Source: an uncultured Candidatus Saccharibacteria bacterium
GTDB lineage: Bacteria; Patescibacteriota; Minisyncoccia; UBA6257
NCBI GenBank assembly: GCA_964479005.1
Contig: CAYZJA010000001.1
Span: 80,642-144,641, forward strand
Direction: 5' to 3'
DNA length: 64,000 bases
The translations under genes and the position numbers were made by a program. Of the stretch, positions 11,647 through 59,357 are shown piece after piece; position 1 is the first letter of the stretch; every line of letters starts with the position of its first letter. The notes under the pieces were generated by a model. It was not told the DNA's origin and made no database searches. It saw nothing but the letters and a program-made list of their open reading frames with translations.

Positions 11647-11675
11647 TTGACAAAACAAGGAAAAGGATATATAAT
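11647..11675 (+). promoter_or_regulatory. sigma70-like promoter TTGACA-N17-TATAAT
   Basis: ttgacaaaacaaggaaaaggatatataat. Confidence 0.55.
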
Positions 11676-11770
11676 CGGGGTAGTTATGGAGAAGATTGAG
11701 TTGCACCTTTACATTTTAAAAGATAAAAAAGATTAAAATATAAGAAAGATTAGAATATAAAAAGGAGGTA

Positions 11771-12361
11771 TTGAAAATGAAAAAGTTATTATTAATACTA
11801 ATGATGATTGTTTTGGTGGCTTTTGCTTTAATGATCCTTGTTTTTCCTGTAGAGAGTATGTATACTGCCCTAGATTCTGAACACGAGATACCTGAAACTA
11901 TTTTGATAAGTAAATTAGGCATAGAGGTATCATACCAATATTGGTATGATACAAAAGAGGGTATAATGAAAGTAGAATTTGTAACCTATATAGATGAGGA
12001 TGATCAAACATCGTGTGCGCAGATTGTTGATGCTGAGGTAGGAGATACCTTCACTGGGATTTCCGGAAGAACCTATGTACTACAAGAACAAACAACGCTT
12101 ACTCAGGCACAAATACAATATCTGACTCATAAGGATATTGTAGTTGTAGGTGAGTGGGTGCCGGTAGATGAAGCTAGTGATAGTGGAGGAAGTGAAGGTA
12201 CTAGTAGTATAGGTATTTCTACTCTGGGGCCATATTATTTTATAGAAGGTGGCGTCACATATAAATATTATATAGGATACATTCCGCCTCCACCTCCTAT
12301 TACTGAAGTTGATGAAGCTGTCGATGGAGGATGGATTGTAACATACTTTCAGCAGAATTAA
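11771..12361 (+). CDS. secreted or membrane-anchored hypothetical protein with PPPPP stretch
   Basis: N-terminal signal/TM segment, AAGGAGG RBS, no recognisable domain. Confidence 0.5.
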   Translation: MKMKKLLLILMMIVLVAFALMILVFPVESMYTALDSEHEIPETILISKLGIEVSYQYWYDTKEGIMKVEFVTYIDEDDQTSCAQIVDAEVGDTFTGISGRTYVLQEQTTLTQAQIQYLTHKDIVVVGEWVPVDEASDSGGSEGTSSIGISTLGPYYFIEGGVTYKYYIGYIPPPPPITEVDEAVDGGWIVTYFQQN

Positions 12362-12440: not shown

Positions 12441-12493
12441 ATTAACAAGGACTAGCTTTACTAAATTTATGCCTTTGGCATTTGTCCTTATTT

Positions 12494-12521
12494 GGTGTGG
12501 GGGTTGACAAATTATTTTTCT
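12494..12521 (+). promoter_or_regulatory. sigma70-like promoter TTGACA-N16-TATACT (sRNA copy 1)
   Basis: ggggttgacaaattatttttctttgctatact; paralogous to the promoters at 54247 and 57847. Confidence 0.6.
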
Positions 12522-12527
12522 TTGCTA

Positions 12528-12596
12528 TACTAAAGATGCCGTTGTTTTGAGATATGTAGCTTGCTATATATCAATGGGCAGCGGCATTTTTTTTTG
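12528..12596 (+). ncRNA. small RNA / structured leader, copy 1 of a two-member family
   Basis: AAGATGCCGTTGTTTTGAGATATGTAGCTTGCTATATATCAATGGGCAGCGGCAT then U9. The 5' ATGCCG pairs with the 3' CGGCAT. Homologous to 54281-54342 with a compensatory C-G to U-A change in that stem. Confidence 0.5.
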
Positions 12597-12656
12597 CGCT
12601 TTTTGATGGTATAATAAAATATAGAAATAATTAAAAAAGATAAAGTATTAATTAAT

Positions 12657-13319
12657 ATGATTAGTTTAAATCAAGTTAAAAAGAATCCGCAGATATTAGA
12701 ATTTATCAAACAGTCAGATGAAGCTTTAGCGGCAGTAGGTTATACAGAGCATAGTTTGTCTCATGCCAAGATTGTTGCTACTCGAGCGAGAACAATTGCT
12801 AAAGAACTTGGTTTTTCAAAACAAAAGCAAGAAATAGCAGCTATTGCCGGTTTTTGTCATGATATGGGGAATTTTTTAAGCAGAAGCCATCATCATTATT
12901 TTGGAGCTTTATTATTCCATCAGACTTTTAATCAGGATTTTACTCCAGAGGAATTAGCAATAATCATGAATGCAATTTCCAATCATGATAAAGACGAAAT
13001 GAATTTTTCCAACATTATTACTGCGATACTTGTTTTAGCTGATAAAACAGATGTGCGCCGTTCAAGGGTGGTTAATAAAAAACCTAAGAAAATAAAAAAG
13101 GATATACATGATAGGGTTAATTTTGCCACAAAAATATCAAGAGTAAGAATTAACAAAAAGAAAAAATTAATTACTTTAATTCTTAAAATTGATACTGGCT
13201 TTGTACCAATAATTGAATACTTTGAAATTTTTACAGATAGAATGGTTTATTGTCGAAAAGCGGCAAAGTTTTTAGGCTATAAATTTGGTTTAATAATTAA
13301 TAACTTTAAATTACTTTAA
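12657..13319 (+). CDS. HD-domain phosphohydrolase
   Basis: H...CHDMGN (HD motif)...NHDKDE. Confidence 0.65.
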   Translation: MISLNQVKKNPQILEFIKQSDEALAAVGYTEHSLSHAKIVATRARTIAKELGFSKQKQEIAAIAGFCHDMGNFLSRSHHHYFGALLFHQTFNQDFTPEELAIIMNAISNHDKDEMNFSNIITAILVLADKTDVRRSRVVNKKPKKIKKDIHDRVNFATKISRVRINKKKKLITLILKIDTGFVPIIEYFEIFTDRMVYCRKAAKFLGYKFGLIINNFKLL

Positions 13320-27203: not shown

Positions 27204-27404
27204 ATGGTAAAAGCAAAAGAATTACGATTAAAACCCGAAGAGGAATTAAATCAATTACTGTCTGAATCCCAAAAGAAATTACGGGAATTGAGGTTTAATT
27301 TGGCTAGCGGAAAAGTTAAAAACGTACGCACCATTCGTGTTTTGAAAAAGAACATTGCGAGAATTTTAACTATTTTAAATGAAGAAAATGAAAATCAACT
27401 CTAA
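27204..27404 (+). CDS. rpmC: 50S ribosomal protein L29
   Basis: MVKAKELRLKPEEELNQLL...LRFNLASGKVKNVRTIRVLKKNIARI. Confidence 0.9.
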   Translation: MVKAKELRLKPEEELNQLLSESQKKLRELRFNLASGKVKNVRTIRVLKKNIARILTILNEENENQL

Positions 27405-27528
27405 TTATGAGCCAAAGGCGAATAACAAGGTTCTTATTATGAGCAAAGCAAATAACAAGGTTCTTATTATGAGCCAAAGGCGAATAACAAGGTTCTTATT
27501 ATGAGCAAAGCAAATAACAAGGTTCTTA
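27405..27528. repeat. 2 x 62-bp tandem repeat filling the rpmC-rpsQ spacer; member of the AAGAACCTTG repeat family in inverted orientation
   Basis: ttatgagccaaaggcgaataacaaggttctta + ttatgagcaaagcaaataacaaggttctta, duplicated. Each half carries a micro-ORF (atgagccaaaggcgaataacaaggttcttattatga = [11 protein letters not shown]). Confidence 0.9.
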
Positions 27529-46488: not shown

Positions 46489-46695
46489 GCGGGCATCGTA
46501 TAGTGGCAGTACGTAACCTTCCCAAGCCCCCACACCAAACGAGTATCATTGCGAGATTAGTATAGTGGTAGTACATCACCTTCCCAAGGTGAAGGTGCCG
46601 GTCCGATTCCGGTATCTCGCTCCGTTTAAAATTTAAAATACTCGTTGTGGTGTGGGGGCAAGGTTAAAGTGTGGGTTCGATTCCCATTGTCCGCT
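46489..46695 (+). tRNA. tRNA-Gly(CCC) gene interrupted in the anticodon loop by a 136-nt insert (5' half 46489-46525, 3' half 46662-46695)
   Basis: GCGGGCA-TC-GTAT-AGTGGCA-GTAC-G-TAACC-TTCCCAA // GGTTA-AAGT-GTGGG-TTCGATT-CCCAT-TGTCCGC-T. All stems pair. The junction is ambiguous across a 3-nt AAG direct repeat. Confidence 0.6.
46551..46621 (+). tRNA. second tRNA-Gly(CCC)-like gene nested inside the insert; atypical T-loop TCCGATT
   Basis: GCGAGAT-TA-GTAT-AGTGGTA-GTAC-A-TCACC-TTCCCAA-GGTGA-AGGT-GCCGG-TCCGATT-CCGGT-ATCTCGC-T. Flanked by 20-bp inverted repeats at 46527-46546 and 46638-46658. Confidence 0.6.
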
Positions 46696-46778
46696 CAAAT
46701 TATTTTTTCGTTACTATCCAAAAAGATTGACGAAGTTTCAAGTGCAATATGGTTTTGTATAATCTTTTTACATTGCTC

Positions 46779-54227: not shown

Positions 54228-54246
54228 AAGTTATCCACAATGGGAC

Positions 54247-54274
54247 TTGACAAGATTTAAATGTTTGCTATACT
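54247..54274 (+). promoter_or_regulatory. sigma70-like promoter TTGACA-N16-TATACT (sRNA copy 2)
   Basis: gggacttgacaagatttaaatgtttgctatact. Confidence 0.6.
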
Positions 54275-54280
54275 ACGGAT

Positions 54281-54342
54281 GCTGTCGTTTGGAAGTATTT
54301 GTTAGCTTGCTAATGGATATGGAAGAGTGGCAGCATTTTTTT
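54281..54342 (+). ncRNA. small RNA / structured leader, copy 2
   Basis: ACGGATGCTGTCGTTTGGAAGTATTTGTTAGCTTGCTAATGGATATGGAAGAGTGGCAGCAT then U7. Conserved core GTAGCTTGCTA; terminal stem ATGCTG / CAGCAT. Confidence 0.5.
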
Positions 54343-54366: not shown

Positions 54367-54427
54367 CGAAGAATTGTCCTTCATATTTTTGATTGACTTT
54401 ATTAATAAGACGTGATATAGTAAAAAT
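54367..54427 (+). promoter_or_regulatory. TTGACT-N17-TATAGT promoter followed immediately by a hairpin and U-tract
   Basis: ttgactttattaataagacgtgatatagt then aaaaatgctcttaattgagcattttttt. Confidence 0.3.
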
Positions 54428-54571
54428 GCTCTTAATTGAGCATTTTTTTGTACTTTGACATTTAAAATATATAGCCGTAACAGGGAAAATTCTTTGTTAT
54501 TGGAGATAAAAGATAGATTATTAAATGATTTGATTAGTAAAAAATAAATTTAAATAAAGGAGGAAAGAAAG

Positions 54572-57712: not shown

Positions 57713-57846
57713 AACAAAGGGGAAGATTAATCTTCCCCTTTTATTTTTTATAAATATAAAATATTTTTATCATTTAATTTATAAAGCCAATGAAAGAGTT
57801 GGCAAATCATTATTAATATCATATTTTACTTAATTAAGAGTGGACT

Positions 57847-57875
57847 TGACAAGAAAAAAAAAGTTTGCTATTGTG
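57847..57875 (+). promoter_or_regulatory. sigma70-like promoter TTGACA-N17-TATTGT, paralogous to the sRNA promoters
   Basis: gtggacttgacaagaaaaaaaaagtttgctattgt vs gggacttgacaagatttaaatgtttgctatact. Confidence 0.5.
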
Positions 57876-57877
57876 TT

Positions 57878-58036
57878 TTCACGGTGGGGCTTTTATTTTA
57901 GCCCCGCAGTGGGGCTTATGAATAATATTCAAAAAAGGGGATTTCATAATTTAAACAAAATTTCTTTTCGATTTCTTGCGTTTAGTAAAATTGAAAAAGA
58001 AGTTTTTTGAGGTTGGCGTTTTTGCGCCAACTTTTT
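57878..58036 (+). ncRNA. candidate ~155-nt short transcript (sRNA, or mRNA for a 30-aa peptide) bounded by a promoter and a terminator
   Basis: Hairpin ggggcttttattttagcccc; possible micro-ORF MNNIQKRGFHNLNKISFRFLAFSKIEKEVF; terminator gttggcgtttttgcgccaac followed by ttttt at 58012-58036. Confidence 0.3.
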
Positions 58037-58094
58037 AATATTAAAATTAATAAAAAAAATAAATAAAAAAATAAAAATTAATAAAATAAAAAAA

Positions 58095-59357
58095 ATGAAA
58101 AAAATAATAACAATTTTAAGTACTTCCCTTTTGATGTTTGCTTTTGTAACTTCAGTTTCCGCAGCAGCTCCGAATTGGAATGTCAGTGGAACATGGATGG
58201 CAGAGCATGAGTTCGGGGGGAATACTTACTCTCATGTAAACAACATTGTTCAAGCACTAGACGGTTCCCTGACGGGGACCGGAGGATGGGATGGTACGCA
58301 AAACGGCATCCCCGTTGGTACTCCTAATACATGGGAGATAACCAACGGTTCGGTTTCTGGTAACAACATTCAATTTAACTACCAATACAATACCGTCGAG
58401 TTATGCGCCAAGGATGGAGGTATTGATGCAGTAATTAATGCTGACGGTTCTATGACTGGAACATGGCATGATGATTGTGGTACTGGACGAACTGGCGCAT
58501 GGACAGTCCCAGCAGGTTCCGCAGTCTATTTAAGAACTGCAGAAATTACTTCTCCAACATCAGGAGAAGAAGTTTCGGGAATGGTTTCATTTGATGCAAT
58601 ACTAACTGACAAAGATGGTGATGATAGTGTTCAATGGGCAGTTCGTCAGGGTACTTGCACTGCAGGAATAGGAACAGTGTTTGGTAATGTAGATGGTAAA
58701 TCAGATATCTACACTTGGGATCATGTCAATTTCCATGCATCAGCCGATACTTCTTCCTGGGCTCCTGGAAATTACTGTTTTGTCTTTAATCCCACAGAGA
58801 GTGCTGGAGATATAGCTATTAGAGAGACACGAGAGTTTATCCTAAAAGACACTGTAGCACCATTGGTAACGATAGAAAGTCCTAGTGAGGGTGATGTTGT
58901 TTCTGGTACAGTTGAAATTTATGGAACTGTTGTAGAATACTATATGCTAAGTCACTACAATATCTCGGTTTATCCAGGTGATGCCGACTTTAATGATTTC
59001 AGCAAAAGAATAGCTCAAGCAACTATTTATCGCACTACGGGTTTTAGTAATGAATTAATTTTCGCATGGGATTCAACTGGATTTGAAGATGGCGAGTATC
59101 TAATTAGATTAGCTGCTAGAGACGCTGCTGGTAATCGTAGTTATGATGGCGATGCATATCTAGGTGGTGATGATTCACAGCATGTGATTAGAGTAACTGT
59201 GAATAATATACCAGACCTAATTGGTCCACCGATTAATAAAGATCAATGTAAAAAAGATGGTTGGAAGATATTTGATAATCCAAGTTTTAAGAATCAGGGA
59301 GATTGTGTAAGTTATGTCCAGAGTAATGAAAATGCAAAAGGAAATAAAAATAAATAA
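58095..59357 (+). CDS. secreted hypothetical protein
   Basis: Signal peptide ...VSAAAP; G/T/D-rich; no known motif. Confidence 0.5.
   Translation: MKKIITILSTSLLMFAFVTSVSAAAPNWNVSGTWMAEHEFGGNTYSHVNNIVQALDGSLTGTGGWDGTQNGIPVGTPNTWEITNGSVSGNNIQFNYQYNTVELCAKDGGIDAVINADGSMTGTWHDDCGTGRTGAWTVPAGSAVYLRTAEITSPTSGEEVSGMVSFDAILTDKDGDDSVQWAVRQGTCTAGIGTVFGNVDGKSDIYTWDHVNFHASADTSSWAPGNYCFVFNPTESAGDIAIRETREFILKDTVAPLVTIESPSEGDVVSGTVEIYGTVVEYYMLSHYNISVYPGDADFNDFSKRIAQATIYRTTGFSNELIFAWDSTGFEDGEYLIRLAARDAAGNRSYDGDAYLGGDDSQHVIRVTVNNIPDLIGPPINKDQCKKDGWKIFDNPSFKNQGDCVSYVQSNENAKGNKNK

What the first reader, a model, noticed from the sequence alone, without database searches (positions are those of the whole stretch)
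12487..12597. Small structured RNA family (two copies, plus a third promoter paralogue) with a co-varying terminal stem
12494-12596 and 54247-54342 are clearly homologous non-coding units.
- Both have a near-identical extended promoter (gg(g/a)(g/c)TTGACAA...tttGCTATACT) and a transcribed core containing GTAGCTTGCTA.
- In both, the 5' end (A-U-G-C-C/U-G) pairs with the 3' end (C-G/A-G-C-A-U) just before a U7-9 tail.
- The two copies differ by a compensatory change (C-G in copy 1, U-A in copy 2). That is real covariation and argues for a conserved RNA structure rather than a random terminator.
- Neither copy contains an ORF.
- Copy 1 lies 60 nt upstream of an HD-domain phosphohydrolase gene. 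Copy 2 lies upstream of the secreted-protein / GT2 / hydrolase module.

They may therefore be trans-acting sRNAs or cis-acting attenuator / riboswitch-like leaders. A third locus (57847-58036) has the same promoter architecture (ggacTTGACAAGa-N-gtttGCTAT) but a diverged transcript ending in its own terminator.
Basis: seen in the sequence. Interest (0 to 1): 0.7.

Follow-up and report, generated by a model that had tools for sequence, protein, structure and literature searches.

The report
Multi-copy promoter-driven hairpin small RNA genes
The two look-alike stretches are real copies of a previously undescribed family of tiny genes, found only in one narrow group of uncultivated Parcubacteria, in which a near-perfect promoter makes a 50-70-nt hairpin RNA that is also a transcription terminator; its cellular role is still unknown.

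Summary

- **The unit.** Copy 1 (12504-12595) and copy 2 (54247-54342) each have a near-consensus sigma-70 promoter. The RNA that follows is one long G·U-rich hairpin with a CUUG tetraloop and a U7-9 tail.
- **Family size.** Covariance models found the same unit upstream of the HD gene in the closest GTDB species. They found 102 copies in all, 95 of them distinct. The copies sit at about ten or more syntenically conserved loci, with up to 5 copies in 11.5 kb.
- **Structure.** 97% of cells form standard pairs. There are 172 double-sided changes, against 48 ± 11.5 in shuffles.
- **Known families.** Nothing in Rfam matches, and no copy was found in viral contigs.
- **Not a riboswitch or attenuator.** The transcript has essentially no sequence ahead of the hairpin. 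Downstream genes have their own promoters. About a quarter of copies face a convergent gene.
57846-58040 belongs to a different conserved RNA family. A possible miniature third copy lies at 54393-54449.

Best reading: an autonomous "sibling" small-RNA gene whose hairpin also terminates neighbouring genes. Its trans function is unknown, and protein binding seems more likely than seed pairing. It is a new member of a known kind, of moderate interest.

The parts
12504..12531 (+). Promoter of copy 1: -35 TTGACA (12504-12509), 16-nt T-rich spacer, TG (12523-12524), -10 TATACT (12526-12531)
   Evidence: Sequence. 11/12 consensus match with TG. The promoter, including its spacer, is nearly invariant in 11 orthologous loci whose upstream flanks cannot be aligned.
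12536..12595 (+). Hairpin RNA copy 1. Lower stem of 12 pairs (12536-12547 with 12576-12587), internal loop UGA/AAU, upper stem of 9 pairs, CUUG loop at 12560-12563, U9 tail at 12587-12595
   Evidence: MFE -29.8 kcal/mol, z -6.7; minus strand -14.4. CM R1 85.7 bits, E 6e-19. Orthologues sit upstream of the HD gene in L008-L014.
12607..12615 (+). Separate extended -10 promoter (TGgTATAAT) of the HD gene (12657-13319), downstream of the RNA's terminator
   Evidence: Sequence. TGGTATAAT or TGATATGAT is conserved at this position in all 11 HD-locus orthologues.
54231..54239 (+). TTATCCACA, a DnaA-box-like 9-mer 8 nt upstream of the -35 of copy 2. It marks a subfamily of the RNA genes
   Evidence: One of only 2 perfect matches in the window. 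TTATCC(A/C)CA is found at the same register in 14 of the first 76 copies. 20 of the 35 TTATCC[AC]CAA occurrences in 2.0 Mb of held sequence lie at this position. What binds it is unproven.
54247..54274 (+). Promoter of copy 2: -35 TTGACA (54247-54252), TG (54266-54267), -10 TATACT (54269-54274)
   Evidence: Sequence. 11/12 consensus match with TG.
54279..54342 (+). Hairpin RNA copy 2. Lower stem of 12 pairs within the RNA (the fold adds two G·U pairs from 54277-54278), internal loop GGAA/GGAA, upper stem of 11 pairs, CUUG loop at 54306-54309, U7 tail at 54336-54342
   Evidence: MFE -23.5 kcal/mol, z -4.2; minus strand -5.9. CM R1 90.7 bits. The most similar copy is L189:3793-3863, at the same locus type after a 66-77-aa membrane protein.
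54393..54449 (+). Possible miniature or degenerate third copy: TTGACT-N17-TATAGT, then aaaa-AUGCUC-UUAAUU-GAGCAU-U7
   Evidence: It has the same register from the -10 box to AUGC, and the same GCAU + U-run, as the full copies. The score is weak (R1 18.4 bits, R2 21.6 bits, E about 0.05-0.13). Low confidence.
57846..58040 (+). NOT a member.
   Evidence: Only the promoter aligns with the hairpin family. Apart from its terminator (58010-58040, 14.6 bits, E 0.42) the CM finds no match. Folds at -54.9 kcal/mol, z -6.1. Homologous promoter+ACGGUGGGG units occur in 8 other contigs. No Rfam match.

Best explanation
Each unit is a self-contained small-RNA gene.

**Inferred steps**
- A near-consensus, TG-extended sigma-70 promoter starts transcription about 5-7 nt after the -10 box, at the first nucleotides of the stem.
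- RNA polymerase makes a 50-70-nt RNA that is essentially one long hairpin, and releases it at the hairpin's own U7-9 tract.
- Dozens of such 'sibling' genes are kept per genome. The count is extrapolated from local density.
- A subfamily carries an extra upstream TTATCCMCAA site, which suggests a regulated promoter.
- The RNA has no single-stranded seed: only a 4-nt loop, a small purine-rich internal loop and the U tail. I therefore think it acts in trans by binding or titrating a protein that recognises structured or double-stranded RNA. Examples would be an RNase III-type or terminator-hairpin-binding factor. Classical seed pairing seems less likely.

**Shown here**
- The hairpin has a G·U-rich lower stem of 12-14 pairs, an optional small purine-rich internal loop, and an upper stem of variable length.
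- It is capped by a nearly invariant G-closed CUUG-C tetraloop.
- The unit often sits directly after the stop codon of a co-directional gene, or tail-to-tail with a convergent gene. The same stem-loop therefore probably also serves as those genes' terminator and 3' end. In convergent cases the RNA would be antisense to the neighbour's 3' end.
- Also shown: family membership, structure conservation, promoter and terminator conservation, and independence from downstream genes.

**Not shown**
- Transcription of the units, and any trans function.
For: - **Promoter quality.** Both window copies match the sigma-70 consensus at 11/12 positions, with TG.
- **Strand-specific fold.** The hairpin folds much better on the + strand.
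- **Family size.** 102 copies were found, 95 distinct. 97.2% of cells are paired. There are 172 double-sided changes against 48 ± 11.5 in shuffles, and at most 26 in the slid controls.
- **Selection on the whole unit.** Promoter and RNA form an island of near-invariant sequence. At the HD locus the upstream flanks cannot be aligned, and at the pilB locus the downstream flanks cannot.
- **Many old loci.** There are about ten or more distinct syntenic positions, each recurring in several contigs. Examples: after a PilB-like ATPase, before the HD gene, after a 66-77-aa membrane protein, upstream of an apparent rRNA operon, and convergent with a gene read as argS.
- **Not a leader.** 25 of 95 downstream genes are convergent. 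At three loci (four contigs) the RNA's 3' end lies within -5 to +2 nt of the convergent gene's end. Downstream co-directional genes have their own promoters.
- **Shared terminator.** In many copies the RNA starts only 21-57 nt after the upstream stop codon. The promoter then abuts or overlaps the gene's end, and no other terminator fits in between.
- **Paralogue similarity.** Copies on one contig are as alike as orthologues across species: mean identity 0.79 against 0.69-0.78. This is consistent with homogenisation or a common partner.
- **Not mobile or viral.** There is no Rfam match, no viral copy and no target-site duplication.
Against: - **No expression data.** The transcription start, the RNA's size and its abundance are all inferred from sequence.
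- **Covariation does not separate the models.** A hairpin selected only as a terminator would co-vary in the same way. The covariation proves structure, not a trans function.
- **No partner found.** No target or binding partner was identified. A duplex scan of the window found nothing beyond self and antisense matches.
- **Ascertainment bias.** The metagenome copies were fetched with a pattern that fixes TTTGCTAYAMT...RTGCYGT. The apparent invariance of the -10 region and of the 5' UGCYGU is therefore partly imposed by the search.
- **Narrow range.** The family is seen only where the HD protein is at least 77% identical. It is absent from the 72 more distant loci. It is therefore dispensable for Parcubacteria in general.
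- **Alignment bias.** The alignment was fitted to the model, which inflates the pairing counts somewhat.
Confidence: 0.5

Rival explanations
1. The unit is an intergenic 'punctuation' repeat. It would be a REP/BIME- or Correia-like element whose selected function is purely in cis. In this view it is a strong, structured intrinsic terminator and 3'-end stabiliser for the neighbouring genes, kept uniform by gene conversion. The short RNA made from its promoter would be a by-product with no trans role.
For: - Copies are placed right after stop codons, and tail-to-tail with convergent genes.
- Contexts are very diverse, with no functional theme.
- Copies on the same contig share idiosyncratic features.
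- Up to 5 copies occur in 11.5 kb, separated by single small genes.
- The hairpin plus U-tract is a textbook terminator.
Against: - The promoter is the best-conserved part of the unit across species, while the flanks are saturated. A passenger promoter should decay.
- A subfamily has an additional conserved upstream site.
- In the DnaA-box-like subfamily, most upstream genes already have their own terminator before the unit.
- There is no target-site duplication.
- The loci are syntenically stable rather than polymorphic.
- The stem is strongly asymmetric, with G·U on one strand only. It is a poor bidirectional terminator.
Confidence: 0.27
2. The unit is a factor-dependent attenuator. The strong promoter is the real promoter of the downstream gene(s), and the hairpin is a default terminator. 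A trans-acting antiterminator protein, or a physiological signal, overrides it, as phage lambda Q does for PR'-tR'. The result would be a co-regulated regulon.
For: - About 74% of copies (70 of 95) are co-oriented with the next gene, at 20-300 nt.
- Synteny with the HD gene is conserved in 11 loci.
- Copy 2, plus a possible mini-copy, lies in tandem ahead of the secreted-protein / GT2 / GH113 module.
- The promoter is identical at many loci, which would suit coordinated control.
Against: - 25 of 95 copies point into a convergent gene, some abutting its stop codon.
- Downstream genes carry their own conserved promoters between the terminator and the start codon.
- No RNA lies upstream of the hairpin to form an alternative structure, aptamer or nut/put-like site.
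- Co-orientation is no higher than expected in genomes with long same-strand gene runs. The upstream gene is co-oriented in 85 of 99 cases.
Confidence: 0.1
3. The unit works at the DNA level. Candidates are a DNA uptake sequence pair, an integron attC-like recombination site, or a DnaA-titrating locus. RNA folding would be incidental.
For: - Cassette-like arrays of single small genes separated by the repeat occur in L141 and L151.
- A perfect TTATCCACA lies next to a subfamily of copies.
- The 5' arm ATGCCGT resembles the Neisseria DUS (ATGCCGTCTGAA). That comparison is from my own knowledge.
Against: - The two arms are not reverse complements at the DNA level. Pairing relies on G·U on the + strand only.
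- The conserved triplets are in the order GTT...AAC, opposite to attC R''/R' (RYYYAAC...GTTRRRY). This rests on inspection and on my own knowledge of attC.
- Density is far below that of uptake sequences.
- Half of the boxes read TTATCCCCA, which departs from the DnaA consensus at position 7. The same motif also precedes ArsR-like and Fur-like genes in distant relatives.
- The promoter and the T-run are conserved in every copy, which a DNA site would not need.
Confidence: 0.04

Closest known systems
Sibling (multi-copy) bacterial sRNA families, e.g. Vibrio Qrr1-5, Listeria LhrC1-5, streptococcal csRNAs, Prochlorococcus Yfr2-5 (own knowledge; the topic appears hits such as PMC5362039)
   Same: - Several paralogous small genes per genome.
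- Each has its own promoter of a shared type and its own intrinsic terminator.
- They are conserved across related species.
- Promoter similarity implies common regulation.
   Different: - Those sRNAs expose single-stranded seed regions and have identified mRNA targets. This RNA is a single closed hairpin with no seed.
- Copy number here appears much higher, with about ten or more conserved loci and local clusters of 5.
- No target or chaperone is known.
Type I 3'UTR-derived sRNAs that share the upstream gene's terminator (DapZ, MicL), and phage lambda oop RNA, a 77-nt promoter-to-terminator transcript antisense to the 3' end of cII (own knowledge)
   Same: - The promoter lies at or inside the 3' end of an upstream gene.
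- The terminator is shared with that gene.
- In convergent cases a short terminated transcript is antisense to the neighbour's 3' end, as with oop.
   Different: - Those are single-locus RNAs with known targets.
- Here one conserved cassette is reused next to unrelated genes.
Promoter- or terminator-bearing intergenic repeats: Neisseria Correia elements, enterobacterial REP/BIME, pneumococcal BOX/RUP, Bacillus cereus bcr1 (own knowledge)
   Same: - Dispersed intergenic copies of about 100 nt.
- The transcripts fold into hairpins.
- They can provide promoters or terminators and can be RNase III substrates.
- Copies within a genome are similar to one another.
   Different: - No terminal inverted repeats enclose the unit. 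The promoter lies outside the hairpin.
- There is no target-site duplication.
- The loci are syntenically conserved rather than polymorphic.
- Pairing is RNA-specific, with G·U on one strand only.
Ordinary Rho-independent terminators
   Same: A stem-loop followed directly by U7-9, with G-C pairs near the base, placed at gene ends.
   Different: - The hairpin is 2-3 times longer than a usual terminator, at 17-27 pairs.
- It has a near-invariant CUUG loop and a conserved sequence.
- It is always preceded, within 4-5 nt, by a consensus promoter.
- It is homologous across about ten or more loci and across many genomes.

Membership tests
Any described RNA family (Rfam 15) | Match to a family covariance model at or near its gathering score | tested here: not met
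   The whole window at gathering thresholds gives only RNase P and 3 tRNAs. Permissive scans of both loci give only chance-level hits, at most 24 bits, all far below gathering and none covering the hairpin.
Intrinsic (Rho-independent) terminator | Stable stem-loop immediately followed by a U-tract on the transcribed strand | tested here: met
   Folds at -29.8 and -23.5 kcal/mol, followed by U9 and U7. The T-run is present in essentially all 102 copies. Termination activity itself was not tested.
Independent sRNA gene / sibling sRNA family | Own promoter and own terminator, conserved as a unit independently of the flanking genes | tested here: met
   Promoters match the consensus at 11/12 positions, with TG. 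The unit is an island of conservation in divergent flanks. It occurs in all orientations relative to its neighbours.
Independent sRNA gene / sibling sRNA family | Detected discrete transcript | not testable with these tools
   No transcriptome data are available here.
Independent sRNA gene / sibling sRNA family | Accessible seed and identifiable targets | tested here: inconclusive
   The only unpaired parts are the 4-nt loop, the small internal loop and the U tail. A duplex scan of the window shows no target beyond self and antisense matches.
Riboswitch / transcription attenuator leader | Sensor or alternative (antiterminator) structure upstream of, or overlapping, the terminator | tested here: not met
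   The hairpin starts 4-5 nt after the -10 box, so there is essentially no leader. The MFE structure is a single hairpin and accounts for 37-56% of the ensemble.
Riboswitch / transcription attenuator leader | Consistently located 5' of, and co-oriented with, the regulated gene, which lacks another promoter | tested here: not met
   25 of 95 downstream genes are convergent. The HD gene and other downstream genes have their own promoters.
MITE / Correia-like mobile repeat | Target-site duplication and terminal inverted repeats bounding the element | tested here: not met
   The longest word shared by the two flanks averages 3.88 nt, against 3.89 ± 0.09 in permuted controls. The inverted repeat covers only the RNA part, not the promoter.
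MITE / Correia-like mobile repeat | Presence/absence polymorphism at orthologous sites | tested here: inconclusive
   The unit is present at the HD locus in all 11 close relatives, degenerate in L015, and absent from more distant genomes whose synteny also differs. No clean empty site was available.
Integron attC site | R''(RYYYAAC) ... R'(GTTRRRY) core sites in that order, with extrahelical bases | tested here: not met
   By inspection of the copies, the order is GTT...AAC on the + strand and neither core matches. The attC definition is from my own knowledge.
DnaA box (for the upstream 9-mer of the copy-2 subfamily) | TTATNCACA consensus, and association with DnaA-controlled genes or oriC | tested here: inconclusive
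   The 9-mer is a perfect TTATCCACA in the window. About half of the subfamily reads TTATCCCCA instead. The same motif precedes ArsR-like and Fur-like genes in distant relatives. No dnaA or oriC link was found.

The most novel reading that the evidence does not exclude
The cassette could be a genome-wide system rather than a collection of genes. One conserved promoter-hairpin-terminator module, kept uniform by gene conversion, would end neighbouring transcription units. It would also flood the cell with a 5'-triphosphate hairpin RNA. That RNA would titrate a double-strand- or terminator-hairpin-binding factor such as RNase III, or would be handed to the host cell of this presumably episymbiotic bacterium. 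Part of the output would be tied to the replication initiator through the TTATCCACA site. The result would be a new class of global, structure-only regulatory RNA in reduced genomes that probably lack Hfq-type chaperones.
Probability: 0.08. Interest if true: 0.75.

Novelty: new member of a known kind. Interest (0 to 1): 0.42.

Why it matters
- **A first family of its type, as far as I can tell.** My literature searches found almost no described regulatory RNAs from Parcubacteria/CPR bacteria. These bacteria have tiny genomes, few transcription factors and no cultured representatives.
- **A ready-made test case.** This family has over 100 sequences, strong covariation, a defined promoter and a defined 3' end. 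It can be used directly to ask how such organisms use small RNAs, and to read metatranscriptomes.
- **A practical use.** It also serves as a marker for annotating promoters and terminators in these genomes.
- **Two limits.** The family is confined to a narrow clade. Its architecture, a promoter plus a terminator hairpin, is not conceptually new.

Tried and rejected
1. **Known RNA families.** Rfam at gathering and permissive thresholds gave no hit on either copy or on the third locus.
2. **More copies in the window.** An unfiltered CM scan found only the two copies, their antisense echoes, generic terminators and the weak mini-copy.
3. **Distant homologues.** Models R1 and R2 found nothing in the 72 loci where the HD protein is 69% identical or less. 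The one exception was an ordinary terminator in L026.
4. **Small peptide.** The stem begins AUG or GUG and would read MPLF*, MLSF* or MLLS*. I rejected this for three reasons. Substitutions follow base-pairing, not codon logic. The ORF length is not conserved. The A of AUG lies only 5 nt after the -10 box, so the start codon is probably not in the transcript.
5. **Mobile element.** There is no target-site duplication, and the loci are syntenic.
6. **Phage origin.** The eight pattern matches in IMG/VR are not family members.
7. **attC site or DNA uptake sequence.** Rejected on motif order, arm asymmetry and density. This rests on inspection and on my own knowledge.
8. **Target search.** RNAduplex over both strands of the window found only self and antisense matches.
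9. **DnaA-box identity.** The genes downstream of the same motif in distant relatives look ArsR-like and Fur-like, not dnaA. This is unresolved.
10. **Literature.** Three searches found no description of such an element in CPR/Patescibacteria.
Full report
**1. What is in the window**

| Feature | Copy 1 | Copy 2 |
|---|---|---|
| -35 TTGACA | 12504-12509 | 54247-54252 |
| TG | 12523-12524 | 54266-54267 |
| -10 TATACT | 12526-12531 | 54269-54274 |
| T-run | T9, 12587-12595 | T7, 54336-54342 |

- In copy 1, four bases follow the -10 box and then the RNA starts: AUGCCGUUGUUUUGAGAUAUGUAGCUUGCUAUAUAUCAAUGGGCAGCGGCAU.
- The consensus scan scores both promoters 11/12 with an extended-10 TG.
- TTGACA-N15-19-TATANT occurs 7 times in the window, against 0.36 expected. 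A consensus promoter alone is therefore common in this organism.

Each RNA folds into a single long hairpin.

- Copy 1: -29.8 kcal/mol, z = -6.7. Copy 2: -23.5 kcal/mol, z = -4.2.
- The lower stem has 12 pairs within the RNA. There is a small purine-rich internal loop (UGA/AAU or GGAA/GGAA).
- The upper stem has 9 or 11 pairs, capped by a CUUG tetraloop closed by G-C.
- The reverse strand folds far worse (-14.4 and -5.9 kcal/mol), because many pairs are G·U. This points to selection on the + strand RNA.
- RNAalifold on the two copies finds 22 pairs, 3 of them with compensatory double changes.

A model built from the two copies scores them at E of about 1e-19 to 1e-20. An unfiltered scan of the 64 kb finds nothing else comparable.

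**2. It is a real family, and much larger than two copies**

*Organism.* The HD protein downstream of copy 1 places the window in Patescibacteria/Parcubacteria (Paceibacterota). Its relatives are labelled Candidatus Staskawiczbacteria.

*Genome collection.*
- The RNA is found immediately upstream of the HD gene in the seven closest species genomes (HD 88-93% identical).
- It is found elsewhere on the contig in the next one (77%).
- It is absent from the 72 more distant loci.

*Metagenome scan.* I scanned metagenome contigs with the -10/5'-end junction pattern and then ran model R2.
- Over all held sequence this gives 102 copies at E ≤ 1e-5, of which 95 are distinct.
- Several contigs hold more than one copy: 5 in 11.5 kb (L141), 4 in 13 kb (L151), 3 in 8.7 kb (L119).

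*Pairing across the 95 distinct sequences.*
- 97.2% of cells form standard pairs.
- 9 of 18 modelled pairs show double-sided changes.
- 172 cells carry such changes, against 48 ± 11.5 in column shuffles and at most 26 when partners are slid.

*Caveats.*
- The alignment is model-fitted.
- The search pattern fixes TTTGCTAYAMT...RTGCYGT. The invariance of those positions is therefore partly an ascertainment effect.

*Size classes.* The upper stem comes in three sizes, all keeping the G(CUUG)C cap.

| Class | Length | Internal loop |
|---|---|---|
| Short | about 49 nt | none |
| Medium | about 55 nt | present |
| Long | 65-71 nt | present |

**3. The unit includes the promoter and is under selection as a whole**

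Every copy is preceded, at a fixed distance, by (g)gacTTGACAAAttaTTTTTcTTTGCTAtAmTa. Even the spacer is conserved.

- In the 11 HD-locus orthologues, the DNA upstream of the -35 cannot be aligned. Promoter and RNA are almost invariant.
- In 11 loci downstream of a PilB-like ATPase, the coding end and the unit are conserved, while everything after the T-run differs.

About ten or more different genomic positions recur across contigs. The gene names below come from my reading of the translated sequences, not from a profile search.

- after the PilB-like ATPase
- before the HD gene
- after a 66-77-aa membrane protein (the position of window copy 2)
- upstream of an apparent rRNA operon
- tail-to-tail with argS
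- next to Fic, GGDEF and radical-SAM genes

These are old, stable paralogous loci, not recent insertions.

- Flanks show no target-site duplication (3.88 against 3.89 ± 0.09).
- No copy was found in IMG/VR viral contigs.
- Copies on one contig are on average as similar as orthologues from different species (0.79 against 0.69-0.78). They often share idiosyncratic upper stems. This suggests homogenisation or a shared partner.

**4. What it is not**

*Not a known family.* Rfam gives nothing.

*Not a riboswitch or classical attenuator.*
- The stem starts 4-5 nt after the -10 box. The transcript has essentially no sequence outside the hairpin.
- The HD gene keeps its own extended -10 promoter after the T-run in all 11 orthologues aligned: TGgTATAAT at 12607-12615 in the window, TGATATGAT in several of the others.
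- Other downstream genes also have recognisable promoters.
- 25 of 95 copies with a callable downstream gene face a convergent gene. At three loci (four contigs) the RNA's 3' end lies within -5 to +2 nt of that gene's end.

*Not a peptide gene.* Substitutions follow pairing, not codons. ORF length varies. The AUG probably lies upstream of the start site.

*Not an attC site or an uptake sequence.* Motif order, arm asymmetry and density all argue against these.

**5. Most likely mechanism**

*Shown.* The unit is a conserved, autonomous promoter-hairpin-terminator cassette. It is structurally constrained at the RNA level and present at many loci.

*Inferred.*
- It is transcribed into an abundant hairpin RNA of about 50-70 nt.
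- In many copies the RNA begins only 21-57 nt after the upstream stop codon. The promoter then abuts the gene's end and no other terminator fits. The same hairpin must therefore also end the upstream mRNA. This is the layout of type I 3'UTR-derived sRNAs.
- In convergent layouts the RNA would be antisense to the neighbour's 3' end, as lambda oop RNA is to cII (own knowledge).
- The molecule exposes no seed, and a duplex scan found no targets. I therefore favour a protein-binding or titrating role over seed pairing, with low certainty.

*Rivals.*
- A purely cis 'punctuation' repeat. This is weakened by the strong conservation of the promoter. It is also weakened because, in the copy-2 subfamily, most upstream genes already have their own terminators.
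- A factor-dependent antitermination regulon. This is weakened by the convergent cases and the independent downstream promoters.
- A DNA-level site. This is weakened by the strand-specific G·U pairing.

**6. Extra features**

- *Upstream 9-mer.* A subfamily that includes window copy 2 carries TTATCC(A/C)CA 8-9 nt upstream of the -35 (54231-54239). It was seen in 14 of the first 76 copies. 20 of the 35 TTATCC[AC]CAA occurrences in 2.0 Mb of held sequence are at exactly this position. The window version is a perfect DnaA-box consensus. Half of the subfamily has C at position 7, however, and the motif also precedes ArsR-like and Fur-like genes in distant relatives. Its binding factor is unknown.
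- *Possible mini-copy.* A possible miniature copy lies at 54393-54449: TTGACT-N17-TATAGT-aaaa-AUGCUC-UUAAUU-GAGCAU-U7. It shares the register with the full copies but scores only about 18-22 bits.
Its transcript (ACGGUGGGGCUUU...) folds stably (z = -6.1) and has homologues in 8 other contigs. It is a different, also undescribed, RNA family.

**7. Comparison, novelty and score**

The closest known things are:

- sibling sRNA families
- type I 3'UTR sRNAs and lambda oop RNA
- promoter- or terminator-bearing intergenic repeats, such as Correia and REP elements
- ordinary intrinsic terminators

This family shares the gene architecture of the first two groups and the dispersed, hairpin-forming character of the third. 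It differs in three ways. It is a seedless single hairpin. It is reused at about ten or more stable loci. It has no transposition hallmarks.

I rate it a new member of a known kind, with moderate interest of 0.42.

- *For:* it is a well-supported, easily testable RNA family in a lineage where, as far as my searches show, almost no regulatory RNAs are described.
- *Against:* it is clade-restricted, architecturally simple and of unknown function.

Noticed in passing
window 46489-46696: A tRNA-Gly(CCC)-like gene appears to be split in its anticodon loop by an insert of about 136 nt. The insert has terminal inverted repeats of about 20 bp (CCCCCACACCAAACGAGTAT / ATACTCGTTGTGGTGTGGGGG) and carries a second, complete tRNA-Gly(CCC) at 46551-46623. 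Joining 46522 to 46659 gives an ARAGORN tRNA-Gly(ccc).
   Followed up: partly
window 12491-12503 (+), 46527-46539 (-), 46646-46658 (+): The motif TTTGGTGTGGGGG occurs directly upstream of the -35 of hairpin copy 1. It also forms the inverted repeats flanking the nested tRNA-Gly (3 matches against 0.75 expected). The same motif precedes promoters in L106 and L154.
   Followed up: partly
window 11647-11770: This is a second conserved non-coding family. It has the promoter TTGACAAAnnnnnGAAAAGGATATATAAT and the leader GGGGUAGUUAUGGAGAAGAUUGAGUUGCACCUUUA, upstream of the secreted hypothetical gene 11771-12361. Twelve similar units in other contigs all precede small signal-peptide proteins, often just downstream of a hairpin RNA gene.
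   Followed up: partly
It begins ACGGUGGGGCUUU and has a second GGUGG-like box and its own terminator. It folds at z = -6.1, occurs in 8 other contigs and has no Rfam match. It lies upstream of the Big_7-domain secreted protein gene 58095-59357.
   Followed up: partly
window 27400-27523: A tandem direct repeat of 62 nt (two copies, 98% identical) lies inside the ribosomal-protein gene region (family D8).
   Followed up: no
L089, L092 (8641), L094, L111, L112, L113, L119 (6244), just after the T-run: Several hairpin copies are followed by a shared sequence, ACCTTAAAATTATATTAATTAAAATTGATTATTTT. This suggests a further conserved module downstream of one subfamily.
   Followed up: no
L141 1-11530: This contig has a cassette-like array. 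Five hairpin RNA genes with the TTATCCMCAA site separate single small hypothetical genes, a GT2, a polysaccharide deacetylase and a peptidoglycan-binding protein. The gene content resembles the module downstream of window copy 2.
   Followed up: partly
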